A stretch of DNA of 12,607 nucleotides from an uncultured Rhodopirellula sp. (lineage in GTDB: Bacteria > Planctomycetota > Planctomycetia > Pirellulales > Pirellulaceae). The notes under the pieces were generated by a model. The model was not told the DNA's origin. It saw only the letters and a program-made list of their open reading frames with translations, and ran no database searches. Below are positions 184 to 12,607 of this stretch, in pieces. The DNA is taken from contig CAXGRW010000082.1 in assembly GCA_964012125.1 (NCBI GenBank), positions 1-12,607 on the forward strand, given 5' to 3'. A program made the position numbers and the translations under genes. The stretch's first letter is position 1, and every line of letters starts with the position of its first letter.

Positions 184-340
184 GGCAATCCCTCGCCTGT
201 GATACGGACAGATGGTTGTGATTTTGCTGCTGGTGTAACCTTGTCAGGATTGGCAAAGGTGCCAAATGCTTTTGAAGGTTACCTTTTCCCTCTCCCTTTC
301 TTTTTCGGTCCCAACAGACATTTCAGCTGAGAGAAAATCG

Positions 341-619
341 ATGCTCGAATCAAAATTGATAGACATGTTGCGTTGCCCGATTGACGGTTCTCGTTTGCAT
401 TTGCTCACCGATGATGAGGTTTTACGCATCAATTCGGCACTTGAATCCGGCAATTTGCGAGATCGACTCGATCAACGAATCAGCTGTCCTTTGGATGCCG
501 GGCTGCTGAATCGACAGGCGAATCGGGTTTATCCTGTTCGGGGAGGCATCCCGTCGCTTGTCTCCGATGAGGCGGTTGAGTTGCCTGAGGGATTCTTTGG
601 CGAGGGTTTGGGGGAATAG
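341..619 (+). CDS. Trm112-family small protein (UPF0434/YcaR-like)
   Basis: The ORF track frame is 266..619. The internal ATG at 341 gives MLESKLIDMLRCPIDGSRLHL...NRVYPVRGGIPSLVSDEAVEL. This matches the Trm112p-like signature as I recall it: N-terminal L-x-x-L-x-CP strand and C-terminal YP-[IV]-x-x-GIP-x-[LM]-x-x-[DE]-EA. The 25 codons upstream of 341 (LLKVTFSLSLSFSV) look non-coding. TAG stop at 617..619. Confidence 0.75.
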   Translation: MLESKLIDMLRCPIDGSRLHLLTDDEVLRINSALESGNLRDRLDQRISCPLDAGLLNRQANRVYPVRGGIPSLVSDEAVELPEGFFGEGLGE

Positions 620-1095: not shown

Positions 1096-1905
1096 TCAGT
1101 CGTCCTCTCCCATTTCTTGGCTTCGTTCTGCCGAGGCTGCCACTGCTTCAATCAACGCGCCTCGGATTCCATTTTGTTCGAGAACAGAGATCGCCTCAAT
1201 CGTCGTGCCTCCCGGGCTGGCTACTGCATCCTTTAGTTCTGCCGGGTGCCGTTTGGTTTCTGCGATCATGGTAGCCGTGCCAAGCACCGTCTGGGTGGCG
1301 AGCTTGAGTGCTAGTGGACGTGGCAAGCCAGCGAGCACTCCACCATCGGCAAGTGCCTCTATGATGATACAGACATAGGCAGGGCCAGAGCCACTGAGTC
1401 CAGTCACTGCATCCATTTGCGTCTCGGCGACCTCAACTGCCAGACCAACTGATTCAAGCACGGATTGAATCCAGGTTCGATCTTCAGCGGAAACTTCACT
1501 ACCGCAGCAGTAGCCACTTGCGCCTTGGCGAACCAGGCTTGGGGTGTTGGGCATTACTCGGGCAACCTTGGAGTGCCCTAACGCGTGGCTGAGATCATCA
1601 AGGCCGATACCTGCCGCGATCGAGATAACAAGCTTGTCCTGCCATGCAGAGCGGACTTCATCGATCACTTCGAGCAGGATATTGGGTTTGACCGCCAGCA
1701 GGGCAGCGTCGCACTGTGCGACGGCGGAGGCTAGTTCTGCGAAGCTGACTGAGGGGTGGTTATCTGTCCACCATTGGCGTGATGTGGCATCTGGTTCCAC
1801 CAAGATGACCTGAGAGGCCGATATTACCTTGCTCGCCACAATTCCCCCAACCAATGCGCGGCCCATTTGTCCGCCGCCAATTACTGCCAGTTTTTGCACA
1901 CTCAT
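1096..1905 (-). CDS. proC: Pyrroline-5-carboxylate reductase
   Basis: N-terminal Rossmann motif [14 protein letters not shown], plus [14 protein letters not shown] and SPGGTT motifs typical of ProC. I chose the ATG at 1905 ([12 protein letters not shown]), which has AGGAAA 8-13 nt upstream. The track start at 1935 is a TTG that adds 10 basic residues. Confidence 0.93.
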
Positions 1906-1926
1906 ACGGGCTTTCCTTGTTCTATG

Positions 1927-1939
1927 CCGTTTCAAACGG
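1927..1939. promoter_or_regulatory. 13 bp perfect palindrome CCGTTTCAAACGG in the proC/argB divergent intergenic region; candidate operator or 5' UTR hairpin
   Basis: The palindrome is read directly from the sequence. It lies 22 nt upstream of the proC ATG (1905) and about 90 nt upstream of the argB ATG (2028). It does not match the enterobacterial ARG box as I recall it. A regulatory function is purely inferred. Confidence 0.2.
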
Positions 1940-2027
1940 GGGTTCTCAATTGACCCTTTCTCGGGCCGACTCTAAATTGATCGGTTTTTCCCTTCCCGAA
2001 AACCCCATTAGCCCCCTCGCGTGGATT

Positions 2028-2942
2028 ATGAAATCGACAATCGCGAAGCGACTGGTCGGTGATATTGGAGATTTCTGCGTGGATGAAGCAATCGGAAAAG
2101 CAAATACGCTAATCGAGGCAATGGGCTGGATTCGACGCTTTCGCGGTAAAACCACCGTGATCAAGCTGGGTGGAAGCCTATTGGATGACGAATCAGCCCT
2201 GATGCACATCTTACTTGATGTGATTTTCATGGAATCGGTTGGAATGAAGCCGGTGATTGTCCACGGCGGTGGGAAAGCTATCAATCGAGCACTGGCCGAA
2301 GCGGGAATTGAAGCGCATTTCGTGCGTGGCCGCCGCGTGACCGATGAGGCGACCCTGGAGGTTGTGCAGAGAGTTCTCGCCAAAGAACTCAACGTCTTCC
2401 TAACCGAAGAGATTGAGAGGCTGGGCGGAAGAGGGATGAATCTCTCGTTTGAAACCACCAATGTTCTGTTTGGGCAAAAGCTGAAAACAGATCCTCAAGA
2501 GGATCTTGGCTTTGTGGGCGAGGTCACTCGGGTTGATCGTAGTGTTATTGAGGGACTGTCCTACACTGATCAAGTTCCTGTCATCCCTTCGATGTGCGAA
2601 GGAACGAACGGTGAGCGTTACAATGTCAACGCAGATACCGCTGCCATGGCTGTTGCTCAGAGCCTTGGAGCCGAAAAGCTAGTGTTCCTGTCGGATGTAA
2701 ATGGCGTTCGAAGAGATAAAGAAAATCCGGACACCATCATCCATTCTTTGTCGGCAGACGATGCTCGCCAACTCATTGACGAGGGAGTGATTGATGCCGG
2801 CATGATTCCCAAGGTTGAAGCTTGTATTGAAACCCTTGGGCGTGGTGTTCGGAAAATTCACATCGTTGATGGTCGCCTGAGGCACTCGCTTCTGCTCGAA
2901 ATATTCACGACCAGTGGTGTGGGTACTGAAATCCACAATTGA
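2028..2942 (+). CDS. argB: Acetylglutamate kinase (N-acetyl-L-glutamate 5-phosphotransferase)
   Basis: Amino-acid kinase family motifs are present: [19 protein letters not shown] and YNVNADTAA. The product is about 304 aa from the ATG at 2028 (MKSTIAKRL...). The track frame opens at 1854, but those upstream residues overlap the proC 5' end and look non-coding. TGA stop at 2940..2942. Confidence 0.93.
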
Positions 2943-3031: not shown

Positions 3032-5119
3032 ATGAGTGACATGGATGAACCCGAAGAGGCAATCGATTCCACGTCGGAGGATGTATCTGACAGGGGTGCC
3101 GACAGTTCAGTGAAGGAAACTGCAGCAAGTCAGGGTGAATCGGTCCAAAACGATTCGCAAAAATCTGGTGAGTTCGCTGAAGAAGCACCAGTCGAAAGTG
3201 ATGATGTTATGGAAAAAAAAGTCATCCAAGAAAGTAACGACGACGAGTACGAAGATGACGACTCAGAAGATGACGACTCAGAAGATGACGACTCAGATTA
3301 CGACGACTCAGATTACGACGAGTACGAGGATGAATCAGAGGAGGATGAATCAGAGGAAGATGATTCACAGGGGGACGAGCACGAGGACGATTCAGAAGAT
3401 GATGAGCGCGACGATGAGTCAGAAGACGATGAATTAGAAGACGAAGACGAATCAGAGGAGTACGAAGACGATTCAGAAGACGACGAGTACGAGGATGAAT
3501 CAGAGGAAGGTGATTCACAGGGGGACGAGCACGAGGACGAGTCAGAAGATGATGAGCGCGACGATGAGTCAGAAGACGATGAATTAGAAGACGATGAATT
3601 AGAAGACGATGAATTAGAAGACGATGAATTAGAAGACGAAGACGAATCAGAGGAGTACGAAGACGATTCAGAGGAGGATGATTCCGAAGATGAGTCCGAT
3701 GACGAAGAAGTAGAGGGGCTAGGAGACGGCGACGTAGATTTGGCCGCATCGACTGATGTTGGTGGTGATGGAAAAATCGCTGACGATGTTTTGGCACATG
3801 AGTCTCAGCATCCTGCCATGCACGAAAGTGGGGCTGAACCAATTCAGCAAAGTGTAGTGAGTGACCGAGTTGCAAGCTCAGGTGTTAACGGTGAGGACGA
3901 AGCACGTGCACTGACTGCCGGTTCCGCTAAACATGCAGAACTGCAGTTTCAGGCTGTTGACCTGCCCATCATGCACGGTGAACCTTTCGGGATGCGTCGC
4001 GCTGATAGAAATGGGTGCGAACTTCTAGATGCAATGGCAGGACGCAACTCCGTGTTTGGCTTTGGTTGTACGCCAATTCGTGAATCTCTTGTGTCTGGTC
4101 TCTCAGATTATTTGGGTGAAGGTAGCCGCTTTGCGGATGTCGAGGATGCTGGCGAGTCAGTACTGTCAAAAAAATTGCAGCAAGTGTTTGATGGTGCAAG
4201 TTCCGTGTCCGTTGAGTCGATGGCACTATTGCCTTCACCAGATTTGGCGGTCGAGTATGCATTGCAGCTGACGAGACGATTTCGTTCTGAAAAAGCGTTT
4301 CGTACAATCGCTCTGACAGGCAGTGACCATGGTCGCACTGGTATGTGTCGAACTGCCAGTGGACAGCCGCAGTTGCACGACGGGCTTGGCCCCATGATGG
4401 CAGGGTTCAGTCATCTGCCTGTGGGAGACTTGGATGCTTTGCGAGCTTCCATGGACGAGCAAACAGCAGGAGTACTACTGTCGCCGATCGATTTGGGTAG
4501 TGGAGCAGTCGCTTGCGAGGCCGAGTATCTTGCCGGAGTGCGTGCTGCCTGTAATGAGCGTGGCGCCCTTTTGGTCATTGATGAAACACAACTTGTATTT
4601 GGGGCAACTGGCAACCACTTTTCCTTTTCTTCAATTGCTGATATCCACGCTGATATCGTGGTAACCTCAAGTGGACTCTTTGCCGGTTTGTCTGGTGGAT
4701 TGGTTCTTGCGTCTCAGCATGCTTCAACGCGGGTTGTGCGCGATCTAGAGCAGTATCCTCTTGTTGCCGCGGCATTGATGGCCACCTTGGACGAAATGGA
4801 ACTGCATGGTTTGCCGGATAATGTGCATGGCTCGGCACAGGAATTGGCTGTTTTGATTGCAGAACGGTTGAGTGGCTTTGAGTTTGTGCGGGACATGAGA
4901 GTGAGCGGGATGACGATTGGCATTGAATGTGACGTCAATGCGATTGATGTCGTGGCCGCTGCGGCCGCCAATGGCCTGCGAGTTGAGACTGCGGGAGACA
5001 CGGCGATACGTATTCAACCTCCGTTGCTGATTAGTGAGGAAGACCGGCAGCTTTTGTTGAAACGACTGGTTGAAACAATGGAAGCAATTGAGCGGGAAAC
5101 TGCCGAGCTGACGTTGTAG
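3032..5119 (+). CDS. Polyacidic-repeat protein with a C-terminal class-III aminotransferase-like (ArgD-like) domain lacking the PLP-binding lysine
   Basis: The frame is uninterrupted from 2939 to 5119. The first ATG is at 3032 (MSDMDEPEE...). A TTG at 2939 overlaps the argB stop as TTGA. An internal in-frame ATG at 3971 would encode the aminotransferase-like part alone. From about 3935 the product aligns by eye along its length with acetylornithine/class-III aminotransferases (motifs recalled from memory): GRNSVFGFGCTP vs GG.AV..LGH.HP, DHGRT vs FHGRT, SPIDLGSG vs EPIQGEGG, LVIDETQLVFGATG vs L.FDEVQTG.GRTG. The [GSA]-K Schiff-base position reads T-S-S (Ser codon at 4670..4672). The gene sits between argB and argF. 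The start coordinate is uncertain. Confidence 0.8.
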   Translation: MSDMDEPEEAIDSTSEDVSDRGADSSVKETAASQGESVQNDSQKSGEFAEEAPVESDDVMEKKVIQESNDDEYEDDDSEDDDSEDDDSDYDDSDYDEYEDESEEDESEEDDSQGDEHEDDSEDDERDDESEDDELEDEDESEEYEDDSEDDEYEDESEEGDSQGDEHEDESEDDERDDESEDDELEDDELEDDELEDDELEDEDESEEYEDDSEEDDSEDESDDEEVEGLGDGDVDLAASTDVGGDGKIADDVLAHESQHPAMHESGAEPIQQSVVSDRVASSGVNGEDEARALTAGSAKHAELQFQAVDLPIMHGEPFGMRRADRNGCELLDAMAGRNSVFGFGCTPIRESLVSGLSDYLGEGSRFADVEDAGESVLSKKLQQVFDGASSVSVESMALLPSPDLAVEYALQLTRRFRSEKAFRTIALTGSDHGRTGMCRTASGQPQLHDGLGPMMAGFSHLPVGDLDALRASMDEQTAGVLLSPIDLGSGAVACEAEYLAGVRAACNERGALLVIDETQLVFGATGNHFSFSSIADIHADIVVTSSGLFAGLSGGLVLASQHASTRVVRDLEQYPLVAAALMATLDEMELHGLPDNVHGSAQELAVLIAERLSGFEFVRDMRVSGMTIGIECDVNAIDVVAAAAANGLRVETAGDTAIRIQPPLLISEEDRQLLLKRLVETMEAIERETAELTL
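3251..3310 (+). repeat. In-frame 15-nt tandem repeat: GAAGATGACGACTCA x3 perfect, plus one copy with 3 mismatches (encodes EDDDS x3, then DYDDS)
   Basis: Counted directly: units at 3251-3265, 3266-3280 and 3281-3295 are identical. Unit 3296-3310 is GATTACGACGACTCA. Confidence 0.9.
3317..3676 (+). repeat. Tandem duplication of a ~150-nt core unit (copy A 3317..3481, copy B 3482..~3676) inside the acidic coding tract
   Basis: By hand alignment the two copies differ by only two substitutions in the shared core (aagatgatt vs aaggtgatt; gacgattcag vs gacgagtcag). They also differ by whole 15-nt units: copy A has TGAATCAGAGGAGGA/TGAATCAGAGGAAGA doubled, and copy B has GATGAATTAGAAGAC four times against once in copy A. 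Confidence 0.9.
3578..3637 (+). repeat. Four perfect in-frame copies of the 15-nt unit GATGAATTAGAAGAC (encodes DELED x4)
   Basis: Counted directly: units at 3578-3592, 3593-3607, 3608-3622 and 3623-3637 are all identical. The paralogous position in copy A of the larger repeat carries a single unit. Confidence 0.95.
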
Positions 5120-5155: not shown

Positions 5156-6103
5156 ATGCAACATTTATTGAGTTTGTTTGATCTTTCAGTAGGGGATTTG
5201 CGTTCCCTGCTTGCCACGGCAAATGTTTTGAAAACGAGGTTGGCTGCTGGCGATCGACCGCCAGTGCTGGAACGTCGTGTGCTCGCCCTCCTATTTGAAA
5301 AGCCCAGTTTGCGGACGCGTGTCAGTTTCGAAACTGGCATCGCACAATTGGGTGGTTCAAGCCTGTTTCTCGGTGATGATGTGGGCTGGGGCAAGCGTGA
5401 GTCGGCTTCAGATTTTACGCAGGTCCTTGGTCAATTCGTTGATGCCGTGGTTTGCCGTGCGAAATCGCATACCAAAGTCGAGCAGTTGGCAAGTTACAAT
5501 TCGCTTCCAGTCATTAACGGTTTGACCGACTTGTGCCACCCATGCCAAGCTTTGGCTGACGTCATGACCGTTCATAACGCCTTTGGAACGGTCGCTGACA
5601 AACATCTGGTTTTTGTCGGTGATGGAAATAATGTGGCACAATCCCTCGCCTTGGTCTGTGCGATGTTGGATATGCGTTTCACACTTTCGTGCCCTGCTGA
5701 GTACGAGATGGATAAGGCATGGATGGAAAAAGTTTTTGAACAATATCCAACCGCCAAAATCAGCACGGTATCGGATGCCAAAACTGCGGTAGCGGATGCT
5801 GATGCCATTTACACAGATGTTTGGACCAGCATGGGGCAGGAAGCTGAAATGGCAGAACGCCGAAAAGCGTTTTCCGATTTTCAGGTCAATAGCAAGTTGA
5901 TGTCGGCCGCGCCACAGCATGCTCGTGTACTGCATTGTCTGCCCGCAGTCCGCGGCGAAGAAATTACGGATGATGTGATTGATAGCGACCAAAGTGATGT
6001 GATCGTGCAAGCCGGTAATCGAATGCACGCCCAGAAAGGGTTGCTGGTCTGGCTGCTCAATCGTCCATGGATTGAGCAAAACGTTACTGATGCTGCTTTT
6101 TAG
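5156..6103 (+). CDS. argF: Ornithine carbamoyltransferase
   Basis: Transcarbamylase carbamoyl-phosphate motifs SLRTR (S-x-R-T-R) and HPCQ are present. The ornithine-specific motifs DVWTSMG (D-x-x-x-SMG) and HCLPA (HCLP) are also present. This argues for a true OTCase rather than an acetyl- or succinyl-ornithine transcarbamylase. ATG at 5156, 36 nt after the preceding stop. TAG stop at 6101..6103. Confidence 0.93.
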
Positions 6104-6132: not shown

Positions 6133-6831
6133 ATGCGCCCACATGACCAACTTCGCGATGTCGAAATACAACGTGGTTATCTTGATTCTAATCCTGCCAG
6201 CGTTCTTTATCGCTGTGGACGCACAATCGTTCTTTGCACCGCTTCGATCGAAGCATCGGTGCCACCATGGCTCGAAGGGAAAGGTAAAGGCTGGGTTACT
6301 GCTGAGTACAACATGCTGCCTGGCAGCACCAGCCCTCGCAAGCGGCGTGATCGCGGTGGGAAAATCGATGGAAGGACCACGGAAATTCAACGTTTGATCG
6401 GACGCAGTTTGCGTGCCATCGTTGATCTGCAAAAGCTGGGTGAGCAAATGATCACCGTCGACTGTGATGTTCTGCAAGCTGACGGAGGGACTCGTACGGC
6501 ATCAATCACCGGAGGCTTCATCGCACTTGCACAAGCAGTTTCCCTGTTAATGCCTGACTCAAGTATTGGTGATGGTCCGCTGACCGATTCAGTAGCGGCT
6601 GTCAGTTGCGGTCTGATCGGTGATGACGTTGTGCTGGATCTTGATTATCAACTCGATTCGGCGGCTGACGTCGACATGAATGTCATCATGACTGGTGGCG
6701 GTCGGTTTGTTGAAATTCAGGGCACCGGCGAAGAGGCAACTTTCGATGACCAGCAGCTAGCTGAGTTGCTGAGATTGGCAAAACAGGGTATCAGTACATT
6801 GACCGAAAAACAGATGCAGGCCCTGCAGTAG
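6133..6831 (+). CDS. rph: Ribonuclease PH
   Basis: The product is 232 aa with GWVTAEYNMLPGST, GRTTEIQRLIGRSLRA and DCDVLQADGGTRTASITGG, characteristic of RNase PH. GGAG at 6117..6120 lies 12 nt upstream of the ATG at 6133. The gene starts 29 nt after argF. Confidence 0.93.
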   Translation: MRPHDQLRDVEIQRGYLDSNPASVLYRCGRTIVLCTASIEASVPPWLEGKGKGWVTAEYNMLPGSTSPRKRRDRGGKIDGRTTEIQRLIGRSLRAIVDLQKLGEQMITVDCDVLQADGGTRTASITGGFIALAQAVSLLMPDSSIGDGPLTDSVAAVSCGLIGDDVVLDLDYQLDSAADVDMNVIMTGGGRFVEIQGTGEEATFDDQQLAELLRLAKQGISTLTEKQMQALQ

Positions 6832-6996: not shown

Positions 6997-8139
6997 TTAC
7001 TGACGAGGGTTCTCGTACCAGACAACGTTGTTGCTGGCCCGCCCTGCGATTAGCAGATCAAGGTCACCATCGGCATCAAGGTCGACGGTTCGGATGTCGT
7101 AGGCTTCCTGATTTTCGGCGACGATATGGGGTATGAAATTACCTTTGCCGTCATTTTCATACCACATGACGACTTGGTCTCCGTAGCCGCACGTGGCCGC
7201 ATCAATATCGCCATCCGAGTCCATGTCGACGGCTGCGAGGCAATGGGGTTCCTTCAGGTTGGCGTCGATGTCGTGGCACTTCCATTGAGGAGCTTCAAAC
7301 CAGATCACGCCCTTGCCATGGCCACGTGATGCGATGAAGTCTTGCCTGCCGTCACCATTCACATCGGCGGGATGAATGTTGGTTGCTCCCGGTTCACGGT
7401 CACTGATCAGATGTTTTTTCCACGCTTGTTGTGGCTGTTCTGGTGCTTCCCACCAAGCAAACCATTCACCCGTCGATGTAGCCGTTGGACCACCTTTGGC
7501 TCCCGTGGTAGCGTCGAGTCGTCCATCCTGGTTGACGTCGCCAACTCCGATGTAGTGAGTCAGCCCAGGGGCATCCTGTTTCGCGAGAACGTTGGGGTGC
7601 CATTGGGTGGCTTTTTTTGCTTCAGGGGGTGTCGAAAACCAAACGAGTGACTCGGGGTAGGGCGCTGTGGGTTGAGCGCTGGTCGCGAGCAGATCGGGCT
7701 TTCCATCCTTGTCGATATCGCCTTTCATCAGTCCATGGATCCCGTGGACTGTATTGGCAATCAACCTTTTTTTCCAACGTTGCGATGCTCCTTGTTCAGG
7801 TTGTTCCAGCCATGTGATCAGTCCCGGATTGTATCTCGCACCGATGTAGTCAAGATCACCATCACCATCAATATCGAAGCATTCGCTGTGAATGTAGCCC
7901 CGATCTTCACTGTGGTCGTCGAGGACAATCTGTTGCCAATCAGGCGCGACAAATAACAGCGTACTACCGCCAACTTCTGCAATGACGTCCGGTAATCCGT
8001 CTCCGCTAAAGTCGCCTGAGATTGCTGTTAAGCTACGTTTTCCCTCCTGTAGGACGTGCTTCTTCCAATGCTCCTCTGCGGAAGAGACTGTAACCAGGCT
8101 GGTTAGAATGGAAACGGCAGTAAATACTCGGACTTTCAT
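6997..8139 (-). CDS. Secreted FG-GAP/VCBS-repeat (integrin-alpha-like beta-propeller) protein
   Basis: N-terminal signal peptide MKVRVFTAVSILTSLVTVSSAEE. About seven spaced Ca-binding-type D-x-[DN]-x-DG motifs follow: DFSGDGLPD, DIDGDGDLD, DIDKDGKPD, DVNQDGRLD, DVNGDGRQD, DMDSDGDID and DLDADGDLD. Each is followed by hydrophobic strands and W-rich segments, typical of FG-GAP/VCBS propellers. Confidence 0.85.
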   Translation of the reverse strand: MKVRVFTAVSILTSLVTVSSAEEHWKKHVLQEGKRSLTAISGDFSGDGLPDVIAEVGGSTLLFVAPDWQQIVLDDHSEDRGYIHSECFDIDGDGDLDYIGARYNPGLITWLEQPEQGASQRWKKRLIANTVHGIHGLMKGDIDKDGKPDLLATSAQPTAPYPESLVWFSTPPEAKKATQWHPNVLAKQDAPGLTHYIGVGDVNQDGRLDATTGAKGGPTATSTGEWFAWWEAPEQPQQAWKKHLISDREPGATNIHPADVNGDGRQDFIASRGHGKGVIWFEAPQWKCHDIDANLKEPHCLAAVDMDSDGDIDAATCGYGDQVVMWYENDGKGNFIPHIVAENQEAYDIRTVDLDADGDLDLLIAGRASNNVVWYENPRQ

Positions 8140-8258
8140 CGCAGGACCTTGGAGTGTGGATCAAACTCGCTCATGATGTGCGTTAACATTAATGCGTGTG
8201 TTTGCAGAATGCCACTGCTGACCGATTTTGTTCTACCGGTGATCCGAGTTGAGTGCTG

Positions 8259-8882
8259 ATGGCAAAATTGTATTTTTATTATTCATCGATGAACGCGGGG
8301 AAATCCACGATTCTGTTGCAGTCCAGCTACAACTATCGCGAGCGTGGAATGCAAACTTTGATCCTGTCTCCTGAATTGGATGATCGGTTTCAAGTTGGAA
8401 AAGTGACATCTCGTATCGGTATCGAAGCCGACGCGTTAACCTTCACGATCAGTGACAATCTGCTGACGATGGCGCTGCGCTTCAATGAACAAGAGAAGAT
8501 CGCGTGCATTTTGGTCGATGAAGCTCAGTTTCTTACAGAGTCGCAGGTGCGACAACTCAGTGACCTGTGTGATGATCACAATATTCCGGTGCTCGCGTAT
8601 GGGCTGCGTACGGATTTTCGCGGTGAGCTATTTGAGGGAAGTCAACATTTGTTGGCATGGGCCGACAGTTTGGTTGAAGTCAAAACGATTTGTCACTGCG
8701 GAAGCAAGGCGACGATGGTGCTGAGAATCGATGCTGATGGGCGTGCGATTAAAGATGGACGGCAGGTGCAAATCGGCGGTAACGAACGCTACCTGTCGGT
8801 TTGTCGCCGCCATTTCAAAGCAGGTGTACCCAGTGCCGATTCAGAGCCACAAGGCAGCAGTTCCGAAGATCTGCTCTTTTGA
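8259..8882 (+). CDS. tdk: Thymidine kinase
   Basis: [31 protein letters not shown] is nearly collinear with enterobacterial Tdk as I recall it. P-loop [22 protein letters not shown] and the zinc-ribbon cysteines CHCG...CRRH are present. I chose the ATG at 8259; the track start at 8253 is a GTG two codons upstream. Confidence 0.93.
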
Positions 8883-8992
8883 AATCTTGCAGTTGATGAT
8901 TCATTGCTTGCGGCTGGCGATAAGCAGAACGCATCCCAGTCAATATGTCATGTACGCGTGATGTTCGCTTCAGGCACGATGACTCGTAGTAC

Positions 8993-10144
8993 TCAGGATT
9001 CAGATTCCAGCAGTCCGATGACCGCCCATGCGGTTCCCCAGTAATTTGATGTGGGTGTTGGCTTGTTGCGGGTTGTTTTTTTGGTGCCCGGTACCTTCCA
9101 CGATCCATCTGATGATTGGCTGGTTGTCAGAAAAGAAATCGCTTTGGAAATCGCGATCTTATTTTTGTTGGCATCGTGGCGACTCAATGCATAAATAGCC
9201 ATGCCGGTCGCCAGCGCATCGCTAGGCTCCGCTGTCAGCCAGCCCCAGCCCCCGTCAGGCTGCTGTTTTTCGATCAGGGTATCACAAAGAGTACTCGAAT
9301 TCATCTCCTGCCGTTTCTCTGCCAGCAGCAAGTGTACTACCCACCATTCGGTTGACGCTGGGTTTGTATTTTGAATGGCTGCGAGTGCCAAAAGCTCCCG
9401 GTCGGCTGTTGTCTGATAGCTGTCGAGAGCTAGCAGAGTCCACGCAGTAGTGACCTGCGTTGTTTCCTCAAGCGAGCGTTTCTGAGCAGGAAGTTGTCCG
9501 CATGGTTTCCATCCACCCTGCCCTTGTTGATTTTTGACAAGAGCCTCGACAAACATTTTTCGCCAAGCTGTGGAGCCGTGTTTTTCAACAATCGCAATTT
9601 GAGTGGAGGCTCTGTCGTTAGCATGTTGGACAGAAGCTTTGCCAGCGGCAACTCGAGGGCTGTCAGGTATGCCAAGCAATAATGCGTTGAGTGTGTCAAT
9701 GTTCGCCGCCAGCGTTGGAGCGACTTTCATGTCAGGCTTCTGGGCCGGTTTGACGAAGTTTTGGACCTCTGTCGACCATGCTGCCCACTTTTTCAGGCGG
9801 GGTCGATTGATCGGATAGCCCCGCGTTTCAGCTGCAGACAAGCTCCACAACATGAACGGAACTTGGTGGCAAGAGACACATTGCCGTTTCTCGATCCAAG
9901 CCTCTCCGGCACGCTCAAGATAGGGGATAGCTCGCTTCACCGTTTCTTTAACGGTATGGGCTCCCTCAGACGCTGCCTTGGATGCGGACTCAGAGTTTTC
10001 GGTCCCACTAATTTTGGGTCCAGAGTCTGTGTGCTCGAGGCCGTCAGGACCATACTCGGCTGCCGCGATGAATTGACTCGTTGCAATCAACGAAACCAAT
10101 AGCATCGCGGTCAGACTTACCAAGGCAGCAGGACGTTTTCGCAT
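8993..10144 (-). CDS. Secreted protein with one CXXCH motif and QW-type (prenyltransferase/squalene-cyclase-like) repeats
   Basis: Signal peptide MRKRPAALVSLTAMLLVSLIATSQFIAAAE. A single c-type heme-attachment-like motif CVSCH lies at nt 9866..9880. Three Q-x-x-x-G-x-W motifs (NQQGQGGW, KQQPDGGW, SQSSDGSW) resemble the QW repeats of alpha/alpha-toroid terpenoid cyclase/prenyltransferase folds. The start lies 9 nt downstream of the preceding redoxin gene. Confidence 0.8.
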   Translation of the reverse strand: MRKRPAALVSLTAMLLVSLIATSQFIAAAEYGPDGLEHTDSGPKISGTENSESASKAASEGAHTVKETVKRAIPYLERAGEAWIEKRQCVSCHQVPFMLWSLSAAETRGYPINRPRLKKWAAWSTEVQNFVKPAQKPDMKVAPTLAANIDTLNALLLGIPDSPRVAAGKASVQHANDRASTQIAIVEKHGSTAWRKMFVEALVKNQQGQGGWKPCGQLPAQKRSLEETTQVTTAWTLLALDSYQTTADRELLALAAIQNTNPASTEWWVVHLLLAEKRQEMNSSTLCDTLIEKQQPDGGWGWLTAEPSDALATGMAIYALSRHDANKNKIAISKAISFLTTSQSSDGSWKVPGTKKTTRNKPTPTSNYWGTAWAVIGLLESES

Positions 10145-10153
10145 AACAGCGAA

Positions 10154-11332
10154 TTACTCAACAGCAGTTTCGGCTTGGCCCTGTGGTTCGCCAAGCAGTT
10201 CCTTGAGCAGTCGATTCAGCTCTTGGCCGCGGGCACTCAGTGAAACCACTTTTCCTTCTTTGTCGACCAGAATCGCAGTTGGAATACCGGAGACTCCGTA
10301 GTACTGCACAAGTGGGTTATTCCATCCCTGCTCGCCTTCTTTCATGCTGAACAGGTTTGGCCAATCGAGGTCTTCCTGTGCAACGTATTTATCACAGGCA
10401 TCCAAGGTGTTGTCGAGATTGATACCAACAATCGCGAAGCCCTGTTCACCGTAAAGTGCAAGTTGCTCTTTCATGTTGGGAACTTCTCTTCGGCAAGGGC
10501 CGCACCAGCTGGCCCAGAAGTCAACCAGCACAGTCTTGCCACGGTAGGAAGCCCAGTCAAACTCTTCGCCTGTTGTGGTGGTTCCTGTGATCACCATCTC
10601 ATTGCCCATCAGACGCATGCGACGTGCAGCTCCGCGGGTGTTTTCGGCTCGTGATTTGATCGCTTCGTCTTTGGACGCAAGCATCATGTCAGCAAGCTGG
10701 TCGTAGAAAGAGGCGGCCAACTCAGCATTGGAGGACAATGAACGTGCCAAGGTATTTCCAAGTGAGAAGCTTTCGCGATCGATGCCATTGTCACCGACCA
10801 TTTTTTTGAACTCGCCGATAACCTCTTTCTGTTCGGCTTCTGTGCCTCTTCCGGCGTTCGCAATTTTGCTTTTGAACGCTTCCATCTTGCCAAGGCGGGC
10901 CAATGTCGGGTTGGAGCTTGTTTCCAGCTCTTTCATCAAGTTGGACATTTTGACTTTCATGGCAGGATTCATCCGACTCAGGAACGTCAGTGCAGCAATC
11001 TCTTCGCGGACAGCCGCGACCTGCATTGGCTCAGGTACGTCTTTGAGCTTTCGGATGGCTTCGGCACCAGCGACAGCAGCAGTGGCTGCTTTGGTGACCG
11101 TTTCCATGGTTCGGCCCCGATTTTGTTTCGCATTAGCGATGAATTTCATCAGCTCTTCCGCGGTGGCACCCTCAGGAACCGTAAATGGATCAGCTCCCTG
11201 CTCCGCTTCCGCGGGGGCTTGGGCAGCTGCGGGAGCTTGTGCCATTGCTTGAGGTGTGAGTAGGAGAAGACCGATCAATGCAATGAAATTGACGCGAATC
11301 AAGTTGCGGCGCCGTTTGGGCTGGAGTGCCAT
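10154..11332 (-). CDS. Secreted TlpA/ResA-like thiol:disulfide oxidoreductase (thioredoxin fold) with a ~250-aa helical N-terminal domain of unknown function
   Basis: Signal peptide ...LIGLLLLTPQAMAQA. The C-terminal part reads GKTVLVDFWASWCGPCRREVPNMKE...FAIVGINLD...GIPTAILVDKEGKV. This is the classical TlpA/redoxin arrangement, with the WCGPC active site at nt 10493..10507. Confidence 0.88.
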   Translation of the reverse strand: MALQPKRRRNLIRVNFIALIGLLLLTPQAMAQAPAAAQAPAEAEQGADPFTVPEGATAEELMKFIANAKQNRGRTMETVTKAATAAVAGAEAIRKLKDVPEPMQVAAVREEIAALTFLSRMNPAMKVKMSNLMKELETSSNPTLARLGKMEAFKSKIANAGRGTEAEQKEVIGEFKKMVGDNGIDRESFSLGNTLARSLSSNAELAASFYDQLADMMLASKDEAIKSRAENTRGAARRMRLMGNEMVITGTTTTGEEFDWASYRGKTVLVDFWASWCGPCRREVPNMKEQLALYGEQGFAIVGINLDNTLDACDKYVAQEDLDWPNLFSMKEGEQGWNNPLVQYYGVSGIPTAILVDKEGKVVSLSARGQELNRLLKELLGEPQGQAETAVE

Positions 11333-11944: not shown

Positions 11945-12607
11945 TCAGCACTTTTTGCCGGGCTCAGGTTTTTTGCCAGAAGCCTCGTTACCAGACGCCT
12001 CGTTACCAGACGCATAGATCGCTGGGTTCAGTGTCGGATCGTTGTACATCTTGAGTTGTCGATAGACCTTGTGCTGCTTCGCACCTGAGAAGAGGTCGTT
12101 GAGCAGTTGCTGCAGTGACAAAGAAAGGTCACGTTGCTGCTGTTCGCACAAATTGATTCGCTGGAGAACTTTTTGGCGATGTTTTGAATCCAAGTCCGGG
12201 CGTTCTTGTTGTTCTCGGTAGTGGTACAGGCGAAGGGCCATGATCGACAATCGGTCGATCACACTTCCGGCAGTCTCGGTATTGATGGGCGCGTCTTCAG
12301 CCCTTTCAATGTCCGCCTCGTTGATGAGTTTTGAAATCTCATCATCGATCTTTTCAATCAGATCGTTTCGGCTCTGATTTAGTTTGTCGATTTCGCGTTT
12401 GACGCGGGCTATGTCTCCAGCTGTGGCATCAGGGCTTCGGCAGATGTCCTCTTGATGCCACAGTCGGTAGTTGCACTCATGTTGCTCGCAAATCAGCTCG
12501 CTGATTCCATGATATGGATTTTCAATGGGTTGCTGATGCCAAGCTGCAACGCACTCCGTTTGGAGCTGCGTCAGTTCTTGCGCCGAGGGGAATGAGTGGG
12601 AGGTCAC
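11945..12607 (-). CDS. Conserved hypothetical protein, probably DUF4254 family; the 5' end lies at or beyond the right window edge
   Basis: The minus-strand frame is open from the window edge (GTG at 12607..12605) to the TGA at 11947..11945. The product contains WH...ENPYHG...EQHECNYRLWHQEDICR...KREIDKLNQSRNDLIEKID. From memory this resembles the DUF4254 signature (H-x-x-N-x-x-LWH-x-ED, then NQ-x-RN). The family assignment needs an HMM check. The C-terminus carries ASGNE ASGNE ASG. Confidence 0.7.
   Translation of the reverse strand: MTSHSFPSAQELTQLQTECVAAWHQQPIENPYHGISELICEQHECNYRLWHQEDICRSPDATAGDIARVKREIDKLNQSRNDLIEKIDDEISKLINEADIERAEDAPINTETAGSVIDRLSIMALRLYHYREQQERPDLDSKHRQKVLQRINLCEQQQRDLSLSLQQLLNDLFSGAKQHKVYRQLKMYNDPTLNPAIYASGNEASGNEASGKKPEPGKKC
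11982..12011 (-). repeat. In-frame 15-nt tandem repeat (GCCTCGTTACCAGAC x2, plus a partial flanking copy) encoding ASGNE repeats at the C-terminus of the DUF4254-like protein
   Basis: Counted directly: 11982-11996 and 11997-12011 are identical. Flanking GCCAGAA and GC give partial extra copies. Confidence 0.85.

What the first reader, a model, noticed from the sequence alone, without database searches (positions are those of the whole stretch)
3032..5119. The argD slot of an argB-X-argF-rph block holds a fusion of a huge polyacidic region and an ArgD-like domain
Seen in sequence: argB (stop 2942), this ORF, argF (start 5156) and rph are co-directional, with gaps of 89, 36 and 29 nt. The ORF is one continuous frame. 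Its last ~390 residues resemble class-III aminotransferases. They are preceded by ~300 residues with no aminotransferase similarity. Within these, a 160-residue stretch (nt 3236..3715) has, by my hand count, 118 Asp/Glu, 2 Arg and no Lys, for a net charge near -116. Established knowledge: bacterial ArgD proteins are about 400 aa single-domain PLP enzymes without such extensions. Inference: the acidic tract is an intrinsically disordered polyanion tethered to an arginine-pathway fold. It might act as a scaffold or condensate former for ArgB/ArgF. It might sequester cationic metabolites such as arginine, ornithine, polyamines or divalent cations. It might also act as a regulatory or solubilising tail. 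None of these functions is demonstrated here.
Basis: partly seen in the sequence, partly recalled or inferred. Interest (0 to 1): 0.75.

Follow-up and report, generated by a model that had tools for sequence, protein, structure and literature searches.

The report
Dead ArgD with hypervariable polyacidic tail
In a family of marine planctomycete bacteria, the gene in the place of the arginine-pathway enzyme ArgD encodes a folded, conserved copy that has lost its catalytic lysine and cofactor site and carries a huge, fast-changing tail of aspartate and glutamate; what it now does, and which enzyme performs the missing reaction, are open.

Summary
ORF 3032..5119 is one 695-aa frame between argB and argF. 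Residues 69-228 hold 60 Asp, 58 Glu, 2 Arg and no Lys (net -116), and a class-III aminotransferase fold follows from about residue 301.

The Schiff-base lysine is Ser547, and the PLP-stacking Phe, the phosphate-binding residues and the GEGG loop are replaced. All 110 close homologues also lack the lysine, as do more distant relatives in Rhodopirellula, Allorhodopirellula, Crateriforma and 'Stieleria marina'. All sit in the same argB-X-argF slot. Other planctomycetes keep a canonical ArgD there, so X is its positional orthologue.

X evolves 3-4 times faster than its neighbours but stays under purifying selection (dN/dS about 0.1).

The acidic tail is in frame in every complete locus. Its length differs between near-identical strains, and it is built from different repeat units in different lineages. 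It is N-terminal in Rubripirellula and C-terminal in Rhodopirellula. No other ORF in 591 kb of flanking DNA has such a tract.

Best reading: a conserved, non-catalytic ArgD-derived protein with a tail selected for charge. Its role is unknown. I could not establish which enzyme supplies acetylornithine aminotransferase activity.

The parts
3032..5119 (+). Whole ORF X: 695 aa, net charge -168. Positional orthologue of planctomycetal argD.
   Evidence: synteny
3032..3235 (+). N-terminal cap, aa 1-68 (MSDMDEPEEAIDSTS...), acidic (net -16) and non-repetitive. The first ~15 residues are conserved among close relatives.
   Evidence: pLDDT <50
3236..3715 (+). Polyacidic tandem-repeat tract, aa 69-228: D60 E58 S19 Y7 K0 R2, net -116. 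Units such as DDSED and DDELE; periods 15, 27 and 42 nt; a 131-nt duplication 3317-3447 / 3467-3597.
   Evidence: all four D/E codons used about equally: 31/29/32/26
3716..3934 (+). Non-repetitive disordered linker, aa 229-301, net negative and evolving nearly neutrally.
3935..5116 (+). ArgD-derived class-III aminotransferase fold, aa ~302-695, without a PLP site.
   Evidence: Pfam; PDB alignment; AF2 pLDDT 85.5 and Foldseek TM ~0.8 to ArgD structures
4670..4672 (+). Codon AGT = Ser547, at the position of the Schiff-base lysine (canonical T-A-K-G-L; here T-S-S-G-L).
4325..4327 (+). Codon GAC = Asp432, replacing the PLP-stacking Phe of the FHGRT motif. It is the family signature 'GSDHGRTG'.
3971..3973 (+). 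Internal ATG (Met314). It lies about where tail-less family members begin, so an additional short isoform cannot be excluded.
2028..2942 (+). argB (acetylglutamate kinase). The probable true start is ATG 2028 (304 aa, as called in homologous loci), not 1854.
5156..6103 (+). argF (ornithine carbamoyltransferase).
6133..6831 (+). rph (RNase PH), last gene of the co-directional block.
1096..1935 (-). proC (pyrroline-5-carboxylate reductase), divergent from argB. The arrangement is conserved in the related loci.
3222..3875 (-). Antisense 217-aa ORF. It is a by-product of GAN codons (the complement NTC holds no stops), not a gene.

Best explanation
X is a real, fully translated gene. It is the positional orthologue of planctomycetal argD. 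In a clade of Pirellulaceae (Rubripirellula, 'Stieleria marina', Crateriforma, Rhodopirellula, Allorhodopirellula and many MAGs) it has lost the PLP Schiff-base lysine and most cofactor- and substrate-binding residues. It still keeps the complete class-III aminotransferase fold. It is therefore a conserved pseudo-aminotransferase, not an acetylornithine aminotransferase.

It remains in the argB-X-argF operon and is still under purifying selection, so the folded protein does something non-catalytic (inferred). The most likely role is as a structural or regulatory partner in arginine/ornithine metabolism. Transamination would then be done by another aminotransferase encoded elsewhere (inferred, not shown).

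The polyacidic region is an intrinsically disordered appendage. It is generated and resized by in-frame slippage of GAN-codon repeats and maintained for its charge rather than its sequence. It has arisen at the N-terminus in some lineages and at the C-terminus in others. It most likely acts as a polyanionic arm: an electrostatic bristle that keeps the cofactor-less fold soluble, and/or one that binds a cationic partner or ions.

Shown: the anatomy, the loss of catalytic residues, orthology by position, the selection regime, and the variability and specificity of the tail. Inferred: lack of activity, the non-catalytic role, and the function of the tail.
For: Dead active site:
- In the alignment to T. 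maritima ArgD (2e54), TAKGLGGG aligns with TSSGLFAG.
- Across the window protein and 109 homologues the lysine column is A65/S23/G21 with no K. SG[T/A]EA becomes S[A/P]D, FHGRT becomes DHGRT (107 of 110), EPxQ becomes SPxD, and the phosphate-binding Thr becomes D/N.
- There is no invariant Lys anywhere in the family.
- In 70 diverse Lys-less versus 63 canonical sequences, 19 canonical-conserved sites have lost constraint. These include N401, G403, E405, the GEGG loop, Q520, R525, T571-G573 and the substrate Arg623 position.
- TIGR00707 scores 145 bits against a cut-off of 410.

Fold kept: AF2 pLDDT 85.5; Foldseek top hits are ArgD structures at TM ~0.8.

Positional orthology: proC|argB-X-argF-rph holds in L001-L040, wherever the contig extends far enough. 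Fuerstiella, Botrimarina and other planctomycete MAGs carry a canonical ArgD next to argB, and where the contig shows them, before argF and rph (L041, L048-L050). It shares the HEGLGPMMAGF motif. Rhodopirellula europaea and a basal Lys-less form occupy the same slot.

Selection: X is 40-52% identical where ArgB is 80-86%. dN/dS is 0.09-0.15, against 0.02-0.05 for argB, argF and rph in most comparisons.

Tail translated and specific:
- It is in frame in all 12 complete loci with an extension of at least 100 aa.
- It has 0 stops against 13 and 41 in the other frames.
- Extension length is 236-311 aa among proteins 97-100% identical in the domain.
- Repeat units differ between lineages.
- C-terminal tails of 27-205 aa occur in the Rhodopirellula-type subclade.
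- All 23 D/E-rich ORFs in 591 kb are X.
- Residues 1-300 are predicted disordered.
Against: - No biochemical data exist: absence of PLP binding and of activity is inferred from sequence.
- I could not show that a separate functional acetylornithine aminotransferase exists in these genomes.
- Many family members have little or no tail, so the tail is not essential to whatever the domain does.
- ArgB and ArgF are acidic, so there is no obvious electrostatic partner next door.
- The former active site shows mostly loss of constraint rather than a new conserved pocket. This gives little support to a ligand-sensing role.
- The N-terminal cap and linker evolve almost neutrally. Evidence that they are translated therefore rests on frame and composition, not on codon-position bias.
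Confidence: 0.6

Rival explanations
1. Expressed relic. X has no function of its own. The ORF is kept open because it sits between argB and argF in a tightly coupled operon. Purifying selection only prevents a misfolding, toxic product. The acidic tract is a neutral by-product of repeat slippage in a protein whose termini tolerate anything benign.
For: dN/dS is 3-4 times higher than in the neighbours. 19 formerly conserved sites are now free. Tail length ranges from 0 to about 350 aa and differs between near-identical strains. In R. europaea the stop and start codons overlap, consistent with translational coupling.
Against: The gene persists at full length, with a confident fold, across several genera at 29-40% identity, despite the bacterial bias towards deletion (established knowledge). 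dN/dS of about 0.1 is far from neutral. Seven positions are conserved only in the Lys-less clade. Neutral slippage does not explain why only this gene among about 2000 ORFs has such tracts. It also does not explain why tails arose at both termini, always acidic, or why the distal end of the Rhodopirellula tail is a conserved motif.
Confidence: 0.2
2. Inactive partner subunit of a heteromeric aminotransferase. X dimerises with a lysine-bearing class-III aminotransferase encoded elsewhere and is needed for its activity or specificity, as Ser4 is for Ser5 in SerTA.
For: There is precedent: the Lys-less Ser4 forms an active heterotetramer with Ser5 (PMC11726168). Class-III aminotransferases are obligate dimers with shared active sites (established knowledge). 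The full fold is retained.
Against: No second class-III aminotransferase lies within about 8 kb in any of 45 Lys-less loci (44 fetched loci and the window), whereas ser4 and ser5 are adjacent. The Thr that X would contribute to a partner's phosphate site is replaced by Asp/Asn, which should disfavour PLP binding in a shared site (inference).
Confidence: 0.1
3. X is still the acetylornithine aminotransferase and uses non-canonical chemistry. It might hold PMP/PLP non-covalently with another residue as base, as in the Lys-to-His enzymes ColD and E1.
For: It occupies the argD slot in organisms that keep argB and argF highly conserved. The Asp that binds the pyridine nitrogen (D517) and the His of the HGR motif are retained. 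At least one genus relative, R. baltica SH1, grows on glucose plus ammonium (PMC2754498).
Against: The lysine is replaced by Ala, Ser or Gly, not by a catalytic residue. The phosphate-binding Gly-Thr and Thr*, the stacking Phe and the Glu are all lost, several of them to Asp, which would repel the cofactor phosphate. No invariant Lys or His substitute is present. The evolutionary rate is accelerated.
Confidence: 0.07
4. The acidic tract is not translated. The protein starts at ATG 3971 and the upstream 940 nt is a repeat-rich leader.
For: Met314 lies where tail-less homologues begin. Neither start has a clear Shine-Dalgarno sequence. Two public gene calls start downstream of the tract (P0010, P0025).
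Against: The tract has the same frame as the domain in all 12 complete long-tail loci. It has 0 stops against 13 and 41 in the other frames. All repeat spacings are multiples of 3. D and E are encoded by all four codons about equally. The ORF start stays about 85-125 nt after argB regardless of tail length. The two short gene calls are explained by a frameshift in a 7x long-read contig and by a 100-N gap. In Rhodopirellula the tail is C-terminal, between the domain and the stop codon.
Confidence: 0.05

Closest known systems
Acetylornithine aminotransferase ArgD (EC 2.6.1.11; class-III, fold-type I PLP enzymes; e.g. PDB 2e54, 2pb0, 7nn1)
   Same: Same fold over its full length (TM ~0.8). It is the best sequence match among all families. 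It has the same operon position as ArgD of other planctomycetes and shares lineage-specific motifs with them (HEGLGPMMAGF).
   Different: No Schiff-base lysine, no PLP-stacking Phe, no phosphate-binding residues and no GEGG loop. It scores a third of the family cut-off. It evolves 3-4 times faster than its neighbours. It carries a polyacidic disordered tail of up to about 350 aa that canonical ArgDs lack.
Ser4 of the SerTA heterotetramer (Serratia sp. ATCC 39006; PMC11726168)
   Same: A natural fold-type I aminotransferase homologue that lacks the catalytic lysine and is retained for a non-catalytic contribution.
   Different: Ser4 is truncated at both ends and is encoded next to its active partner Ser5. 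X has the complete fold, no adjacent active paralogue and an acidic tail. Ser4 belongs to the sugar-aminotransferase group, not class III.
Lys-replaced PMP/PLP enzymes of the aspartate-aminotransferase superfamily (ColD, CDP-hexulose 3-dehydrase E1); from my own knowledge, not tested here
   Same: Members of the same superfamily that naturally lack the Schiff-base lysine.
   Different: They put a catalytic His at that position and keep the cofactor-binding residues. X has Ser/Ala/Gly there and has lost the cofactor site.
Proteins with polyacidic disordered tails (e.g. HMGB1 and ANP32 acidic tails, prothymosin alpha, calsequestrin; the highly acidic E. coli proteins MsyB and YjgD used as solubility tags; the acidic carrier LysW of the ArgB/ArgD-homologous lysine pathway); from my own knowledge
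   Same: Long D/E-rich, Lys/Arg-free, disordered segments whose charge rather than sequence matters. LysW is an acidic protein that works with ArgB/ArgD homologues.
   Different: None is fused to an aminotransferase fold. Unlike LysW, X's tail has no zinc-finger cysteines and the distal tail ends seen differ between lineages. Tracts of this size are rare in bacteria (own knowledge).

Membership tests
ArgD / acetylornithine aminotransferase (TIGR00707, class-III PLP aminotransferases) | Class-III (fold-type I) aminotransferase fold | tested here: met
   PF00202 E=1.8e-37, residues 324-681. AF2 pLDDT 85.5; Foldseek TM ~0.8 to ArgD structures.
ArgD / acetylornithine aminotransferase (TIGR00707, class-III PLP aminotransferases) | Score above the curated family cut-off | tested here: not met
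   TIGR00707 gives 144.9 bits against a cut-off of 410. All ArgD equivalog models are far below their cut-offs.
ArgD / acetylornithine aminotransferase (TIGR00707, class-III PLP aminotransferases) | Schiff-base lysine (T-A-K-G-L motif) | tested here: not met
   Ser547 in the window. 0 of 110 family members have Lys. There is no invariant Lys anywhere.
ArgD / acetylornithine aminotransferase (TIGR00707, class-III PLP aminotransferases) | PLP-binding residues: S-G-T/A-E-A phosphate loop, stacking Phe of FHGRT, Glu of EPxQGEGG, Thr of the partner subunit | tested here: not met
   SPDLA, DHGRT, SPIDLGSG and the T-to-D/N change. 19 canonical-conserved sites are unconstrained in the clade.
ArgD / acetylornithine aminotransferase (TIGR00707, class-III PLP aminotransferases) | Asp that binds the pyridine nitrogen (DExQ) | tested here: met
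   D517 is invariant.
ArgD / acetylornithine aminotransferase (TIGR00707, class-III PLP aminotransferases) | Location in an arginine-biosynthesis gene cluster | tested here: met
   argB-X-argF in the window and, where the contig extends far enough, in L001-L040, L051-L055.
ArgD / acetylornithine aminotransferase (TIGR00707, class-III PLP aminotransferases) | Acetylornithine:2-oxoglutarate aminotransferase activity | not testable with these tools
   Needs an enzyme assay or complementation.
Pseudoenzyme (inactive homologue of an enzyme family, retained by selection) | Clear homology to an enzyme family, with essential catalytic and cofactor residues lost | tested here: met
Pseudoenzyme (inactive homologue of an enzyme family, retained by selection) | Retained under purifying selection across lineages (not a pseudogene) | tested here: met
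   dN/dS 0.09-0.15. Intact ORFs occur in more than 100 clusters and several genera.
Pseudoenzyme (inactive homologue of an enzyme family, retained by selection) | Demonstrated absence of the ancestral activity | not testable with these tools
   Needs biochemistry.
SerTA-type heteromeric aminotransferase (inactive plus active subunit) | An active lysine-bearing paralogue encoded adjacently | tested here: not met
   tblastn with a canonical ArgD finds only X itself in each of the 44 fetched Lys-less loci and the window.
SerTA-type heteromeric aminotransferase (inactive plus active subunit) | Physical heterocomplex with an active subunit | not testable with these tools
   Needs co-purification, or multimer prediction against the full proteome.
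LysW/ArgW amino-group carrier protein | Small zinc-finger globular domain and a conserved C-terminal acidic EDWGE-type end that carries the substrate | tested here: not met
   The window's extension (aa 1-312) holds no Cys. The C-terminal tail ends differ between lineages (...NEETEKL...DPETQS...AETGAV).
MocR/GabR-type regulators (aminotransferase-fold sensor fused to a DNA-binding domain) | N-terminal winged helix-turn-helix domain | tested here: not met
   Pfam finds only PF00202. Residues 1-300 are predicted disordered.

The most novel reading that the evidence does not exclude
Across a clade spanning several Pirellulaceae genera the ancestral ArgD was displaced from catalysis by a non-orthologous aminotransferase. 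The old protein was then recruited as a polyanionic regulatory pseudoenzyme. The relic fold would report on pathway state, by binding an arginine-pathway intermediate or enzyme. The polyacidic arm, with its conserved distal motif, would capture or mimic a partner: for example it could titrate a cationic DNA-binding regulator as a DNA mimic, or buffer polyamines or divalent cations. This would be a new type of operon-embedded bacterial pseudoenzyme in which a disordered polyanion is the effector.
Probability: 0.15. Interest if true: 0.85.

Novelty: new variant of a known kind. Interest (0 to 1): 0.7.

Why it matters
- Databases name these proteins 'acetylornithine aminotransferase' or 'PLP-dependent enzyme'. 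Metabolic reconstructions of Pirellulaceae therefore count a step as present when this gene probably cannot perform it. At least one genus relative grows on glucose plus ammonium (PMC2754498), so an unidentified enzyme must supply the reaction.
- This is a clean natural case of an essential-pathway enzyme turning into a conserved pseudoenzyme while keeping its operon position. Intermediate forms survive: basal members keep the SGSEA loop but have already lost the lysine.
- An extreme polyacidic disordered tail has arisen at either end of the same domain and is resized between strains. Together with its specificity to this gene, this makes the system a tractable bacterial model for asking what charge-only disordered regions do.
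- The repeat breaks or misleads metagenome assemblies and gene callers.

Tried and rejected
- **Search for a second, functional argD in the same genomes.** The single genome-contig scan went to mapping the family. A search with the Botrimarina canonical ArgD returned only Lacipirellulaceae-type proteins at 73-100% identity among its best 120 hits. tblastn of a canonical ArgD against all fetched loci found only X. The question stays open.
- **Literature.** Searches on Rubripirellula or Rhodopirellula with arginine or argD, and on Lys-less class-III aminotransferases, found nothing on this family. One relevant precedent, Ser4/Ser5, came up.
- **Electrostatic scaffold for ArgB/ArgF.** Rejected as a simple model, because both are acidic in the clade (net -12 and -9). 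Tail charge against ArgB charge gives r=-0.47 (n=27) without correction for phylogeny, so I give it no weight.
- **Ligand-sensing relic pocket.** I first took the 'VRD' arginine for the retained substrate-binding Arg. The larger column analysis shows the canonical Arg position (623) is mostly His/Asn in the clade and that the pocket mainly lost constraint. The idea is downgraded.
- **LysW-like carrier role for the tail.** Rejected: no zinc-finger cysteines and no conserved terminal Glu.
- **P0010 and P0025 as evidence that the tail is untranslated.** Rejected: they are assembly artefacts.
- **RNA and signal scans.** Rfam, tRNA and promoter/terminator scans found nothing relevant between argB and rph.
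- **Codon-position bias in the cap and linker.** Too weak to prove translation on its own.


Full report
**1. The observation**

The window carries proC (1096..1935, minus strand). On the plus strand it carries argB (ORF listed from 1854; probable start 2028; stop 2942), an ORF at 3032..5119, argF (5156..6103) and rph (6133..6831). The ORF is one uninterrupted frame of 695 codons.

Residues 69-228 contain 60 Asp, 58 Glu, 19 Ser, 7 Tyr, 2 Arg and no Lys, for a net charge of -116. The whole protein has a net charge of -168.

The tract is made of tandem repeats with periods of 15, 27 and 42 nt and a 131-nt duplication at 89% identity. Every spacing is a multiple of three. All four Asp/Glu codons are used about equally (31/29/32/26), so the conservation is at the amino-acid level.

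Pfam PF00202 covers residues 324-681 (E=1.8e-37). In a full-length AlphaFold model, residues 1-300 have pLDDT below 50 and no secondary structure, and the fold is confident from about residue 301. By charge and hydropathy the tract lies far on the disordered side (mean hydropathy 0.19, net charge per residue 0.73).

**2. The ArgD-like domain has no PLP site**

The domain scores only 145 bits against the ArgD model TIGR00707, whose cut-off is 410. Aligned to solved ArgD structures, the window differs at these positions:

| Canonical ArgD | Window protein |
|---|---|
| T-A-K-G-L-G-G-G (Schiff-base lysine) | T-S-S-G-L-F-A-G (Ser547) |
| S-G-T-E-A | S-P-D-L-A |
| F-H-G-R-T | D-H-G-R-T |
| E-P-I-Q-G-E-G-G | S-P-I-D-L-G-S-G |
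| T-F-G-G-N-P (partner-subunit Thr) | missing |

This is not peculiar to the window. In an alignment of the window protein with 109 homologues the lysine column reads Ala 65, Ser 23, Gly 21, with no Lys. The stacking Phe is Asp in 107. The eight canonical ArgDs in the same alignment keep every one of these residues. No lysine is invariant anywhere in the family.

I then compared 70 diverse Lys-less sequences with 63 canonical ones:
- 19 positions strongly conserved in ArgD are unconstrained in the Lys-less clade. They include the N-x-G-x-E cofactor loop, the GEGG loop, Gln520, Arg525, Thr571-Gly573 and the substrate arginine position 623.
- Three positions are conserved but different: Phe to Asp, Thr to Ser, Lys to Ala.
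- Seven positions are newly constrained.

The fold itself is intact. The domain model has pLDDT 85.5 and pTM 0.85, and its best structural matches are ArgD from Salmonella, Thermotoga, Campylobacter and Mycobacterium at TM about 0.8. The low-confidence loops are those of the former active site.

**3. X is the positional orthologue of ArgD, and the clade is broad**

A scan of one genome per species found 40 loci of the family. They come from Rubripirellula species, 'Rhodopirellula sp.' and Pirellulaceae MAGs, Rubripirellula obstinata and 'Stieleria marina' K23_9. Wherever the contig extends far enough, the order is proC | argB - X - argF - rph, often followed by the same FG-GAP protein and tdk.

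The same scan also picked up ten loci from Fuerstiella, Botrimarina and other planctomycete MAGs. There a fully canonical ArgD lies next to argB in eight of the ten and, where the contig shows them, before argF and rph (L041, L048-L050). It has SGAEANE, FHGRT, EPxQGEGG, DEVQ, LAKGL and STFGGN, and it shares the motif HEGLGPMMAGF with X.

An exhaustive search of 1.84 billion cluster representatives showed that the Lys-less signature extends to sequences only 30-37% identical to the window. Named members include Crateriforma conspicua, Rhodopirellula europaea and Allorhodopirellula solitaria. R. bahusiensis, R. islandica, R. halodulae and other Rhodopirellula also carry it.

R. europaea has argB-X-argF with overlapping stop and start codons. 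A basal form (P0159) still has the SGSEA loop and a Tyr for the Phe, but already has Ala for the lysine. It sits in proC | argB - X - argF - rph. In a neighbour-joining tree the Lys-less proteins form one clade next to planctomycetal canonical ArgDs. That tree is a rough guide only.

**4. Selection**

| Comparison | ArgB | X / ArgD | ArgF |
|---|---|---|---|
| Within the Lys-less clade | 80-86% | 40-52% | 69-81% |
| Between canonical planctomycete loci | 52-68% | 58-70% | 49-59% |
| Lys-less versus canonical loci | 65-69% | 29-36% | 52-55% |

(All.) Canonical ArgD is as conserved as ArgB, so X has accelerated.

X is nonetheless not decaying freely. Nei-Gojobori dN/dS of the domain is 0.09-0.15. 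The neighbours give 0.02-0.03 for argB (0.08 in the closest pair), 0.02-0.05 for argF and 0.02-0.05 for rph. Differences from a 90%-identical relative fall 21/17/104 on codon positions 1/2/3. X is a gene under purifying selection, relaxed three- to four-fold.

**5. The tail**

The N-terminal extension ranges continuously from 0 to about 350 residues and is always net negative. Among proteins 97-100% identical in the domain it ranges from 236 to 311 residues, with net charge -90 to -149.

Repeat units differ between lineages. Examples are DDELE and DDSED in the window, ESEDAE[CY]ED, EAEYEEEDEVEDE, DDEHDDEH and EEAEEEAEEE.

In all 12 species-level loci that have complete upstream sequence and an extension of at least 100 aa, the tract is in frame with the domain. 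The ORF begins about 85-125 nt after argB, whatever the tail length.

Two public gene calls start downstream of the tract. One is explained by a frameshift in an A-run of a 7x long-read contig, the other by a 100-N scaffold gap inside the repeat.

Most tellingly, the Rhodopirellula-type subclade has no N-terminal extension. It carries a polyacidic tail of 27-205 residues at the C-terminus instead (net charge down to about -98). In Rhodopirellula that tail ends in a conserved motif, TELExNELDEFESNEETEK[LH].

In 591 kb of DNA flanking these loci (2039 stop-to-stop ORFs of at least 100 aa), every one of the 23 ORFs with at least 25 D/E in a 50-residue window is X itself. The canonical ArgDs aligned here have no acidic extension. 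The tail is therefore linked to the Lys-less domain. It is resized rapidly by in-frame slippage and keeps composition rather than sequence.

**6. How it most likely works**

Shown:
- X is a full-length, selected, ArgD-derived protein without the residues needed for PLP chemistry.
- It is co-directional with argB and argF, and in at least one genus overlaps them.
- It carries a disordered polyanion.

Inferred:
- X is catalytically inactive as an aminotransferase.
- Another enzyme supplies acetylornithine aminotransferase activity.
- X has a non-catalytic role connected with arginine metabolism.

For the tail I favour a charge-only function. It may act as an electrostatic bristle that keeps a cofactor-less, more acidic fold soluble and unaggregated; the domain has net charge -24 against -11 for canonical ArgD. 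It may also, or instead, act as a polyanionic arm for a cationic partner or for ions.

A direct electrostatic hold on ArgB or ArgF is not supported, since both are acidic. A precise ligand-sensing pocket is not supported either, because the old site mostly lost constraint.

My confidence is about 0.8 that X is a translated pseudo-aminotransferase with a disordered acidic tail, and about 0.35 for any particular non-catalytic mechanism. The overall figure given is 0.6.

**7. Rivals**

- **Expressed relic with a neutral slippage tail (0.2).** This fits the relaxed rate and the variable length. It does not fit retention across genera, the tail's specificity to this gene, tails at both termini, or the conserved distal motif.
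- **Inactive partner of a heteromeric aminotransferase, like Ser4/Ser5 in PMC11726168 (0.1).** No adjacent active paralogue exists, and the residue X would lend to a partner's phosphate site is Asp/Asn.
- **Still active by unusual chemistry (0.07).** This is contradicted by the loss of nearly the whole cofactor site.
- **Tail untranslated (0.05).** This is contradicted by frame conservation and by the C-terminal version of the tail.

**8. Comparison with known systems and novelty**

[quoted passage not shown] It fails the defining catalytic features of ArgD and should not be filed, or annotated, as acetylornithine aminotransferase. It meets the sequence-level definition of a pseudoenzyme.

Lys-less fold-type I proteins are known: Ser4, and from my own knowledge the His-substituted ColD and E1. 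Acidic disordered tails are also known. I found no description of this family, of a dead ArgD occupying the argD slot across several Pirellulaceae genera, or of polyacidic tails acquired at either end of one domain. I rate it a new variant of a known kind.

R. baltica SH1 grows in mineral medium with glucose and ammonium chloride (PMC2754498). Every Rhodopirellula species recovered has the Lys-less form, but SH1 itself was not confirmed. Taken together, this suggests that a non-orthologous enzyme performs the step.

**9. Limits**

- No complete genome could be searched for other aminotransferases.
- The tree is neighbour-joining on a fast alignment.
- dN/dS is a simple pairwise estimate, and dS is saturated for the more distant pairs.
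- Inactivity is inferred from sequence alone.

Noticed in passing
window 1854-2942 (+) and 1096-1935 (-): The argB ORF as listed starts at 1854 and overlaps proC on the other strand. Homologous loci call a 304-305-aa ArgB, which puts the real start at ATG 2028.
   Followed up: partly
window 3222-3875 (-): A 217-aa antisense ORF rich in Arg, Leu and His lies opposite the acidic tract. It is a by-product of GAN codons, whose complement has no stop codons, and is not a gene.
   Followed up: yes
L001-L003, L005, L006, L008, L026 (contig ends); L052:3550-3650 (100 N); L051:3700-3760: Metagenome assemblies often end, gap or frameshift inside the acidic repeat, and gene callers then start X downstream (P0010, P0025). 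The tract is a practical assembly and annotation hazard.
   Followed up: yes
P0189, P0423-P0432 (Rhodopirellula spp.), C-terminal 20 residues: The C-terminal acidic tails of Rhodopirellula end in a conserved motif, TELExNELDEFESNEETEK[LH], across species that are 73-100% identical in the domain. P0174 and P0200 share a different conserved end (…EVKRSQF[ED]GE…DSDS.TDPE[TN]QS). These could be short linear binding motifs.
   Followed up: partly
L053:5141-8429 (Rhodopirellula europaea): argB and X overlap by 4 nt, and X and argF by 1 nt. This suggests translational coupling through the acidic C-terminal tail.
   Followed up: no
L054:2631-3878 (P0159) and P0209, P0169, P0158: Basal Lys-less forms keep the SGSEA phosphate loop and a Tyr at the stacking position but already have Ala/Ser for the lysine. 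The lysine may therefore have been lost early, with the rest of the site decaying later.
   Followed up: partly
L035:6981-9162: Both argB and X appear split by frameshifts in this MAG. The likely cause is sequencing error rather than pseudogenisation.
   Followed up: no
window 11945-12607 (-): A DUF4254 protein (PF14063, E=2.9e-50) ends in three ASGNE repeats followed by a Lys/Pro-rich end.
   Followed up: no
window 266-619 (+): A small 117-aa ORF upstream of proC is conserved in most related loci (36-80% identity) and has a faint Trm112p hit in one of them. Its function is unknown.
   Followed up: no
loci L004-L040 (ArgB against tail charge): Across 27 loci, a more negative tail goes with a slightly less negative ArgB (r=-0.47). 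The figure is not corrected for phylogeny and may be meaningless.
   Followed up: no
window 6997-11332: The genes downstream of rph are typical planctomycete cargo. They are an FG-GAP/VCBS beta-propeller protein (-), thymidine kinase (+), a prenyltransferase/squalene-cyclase-like repeat protein with a signal-like N-terminus (-) and a thioredoxin/TlpA-like protein (-). FG-GAP and tdk are syntenic with the arg block in many loci.
   Followed up: no
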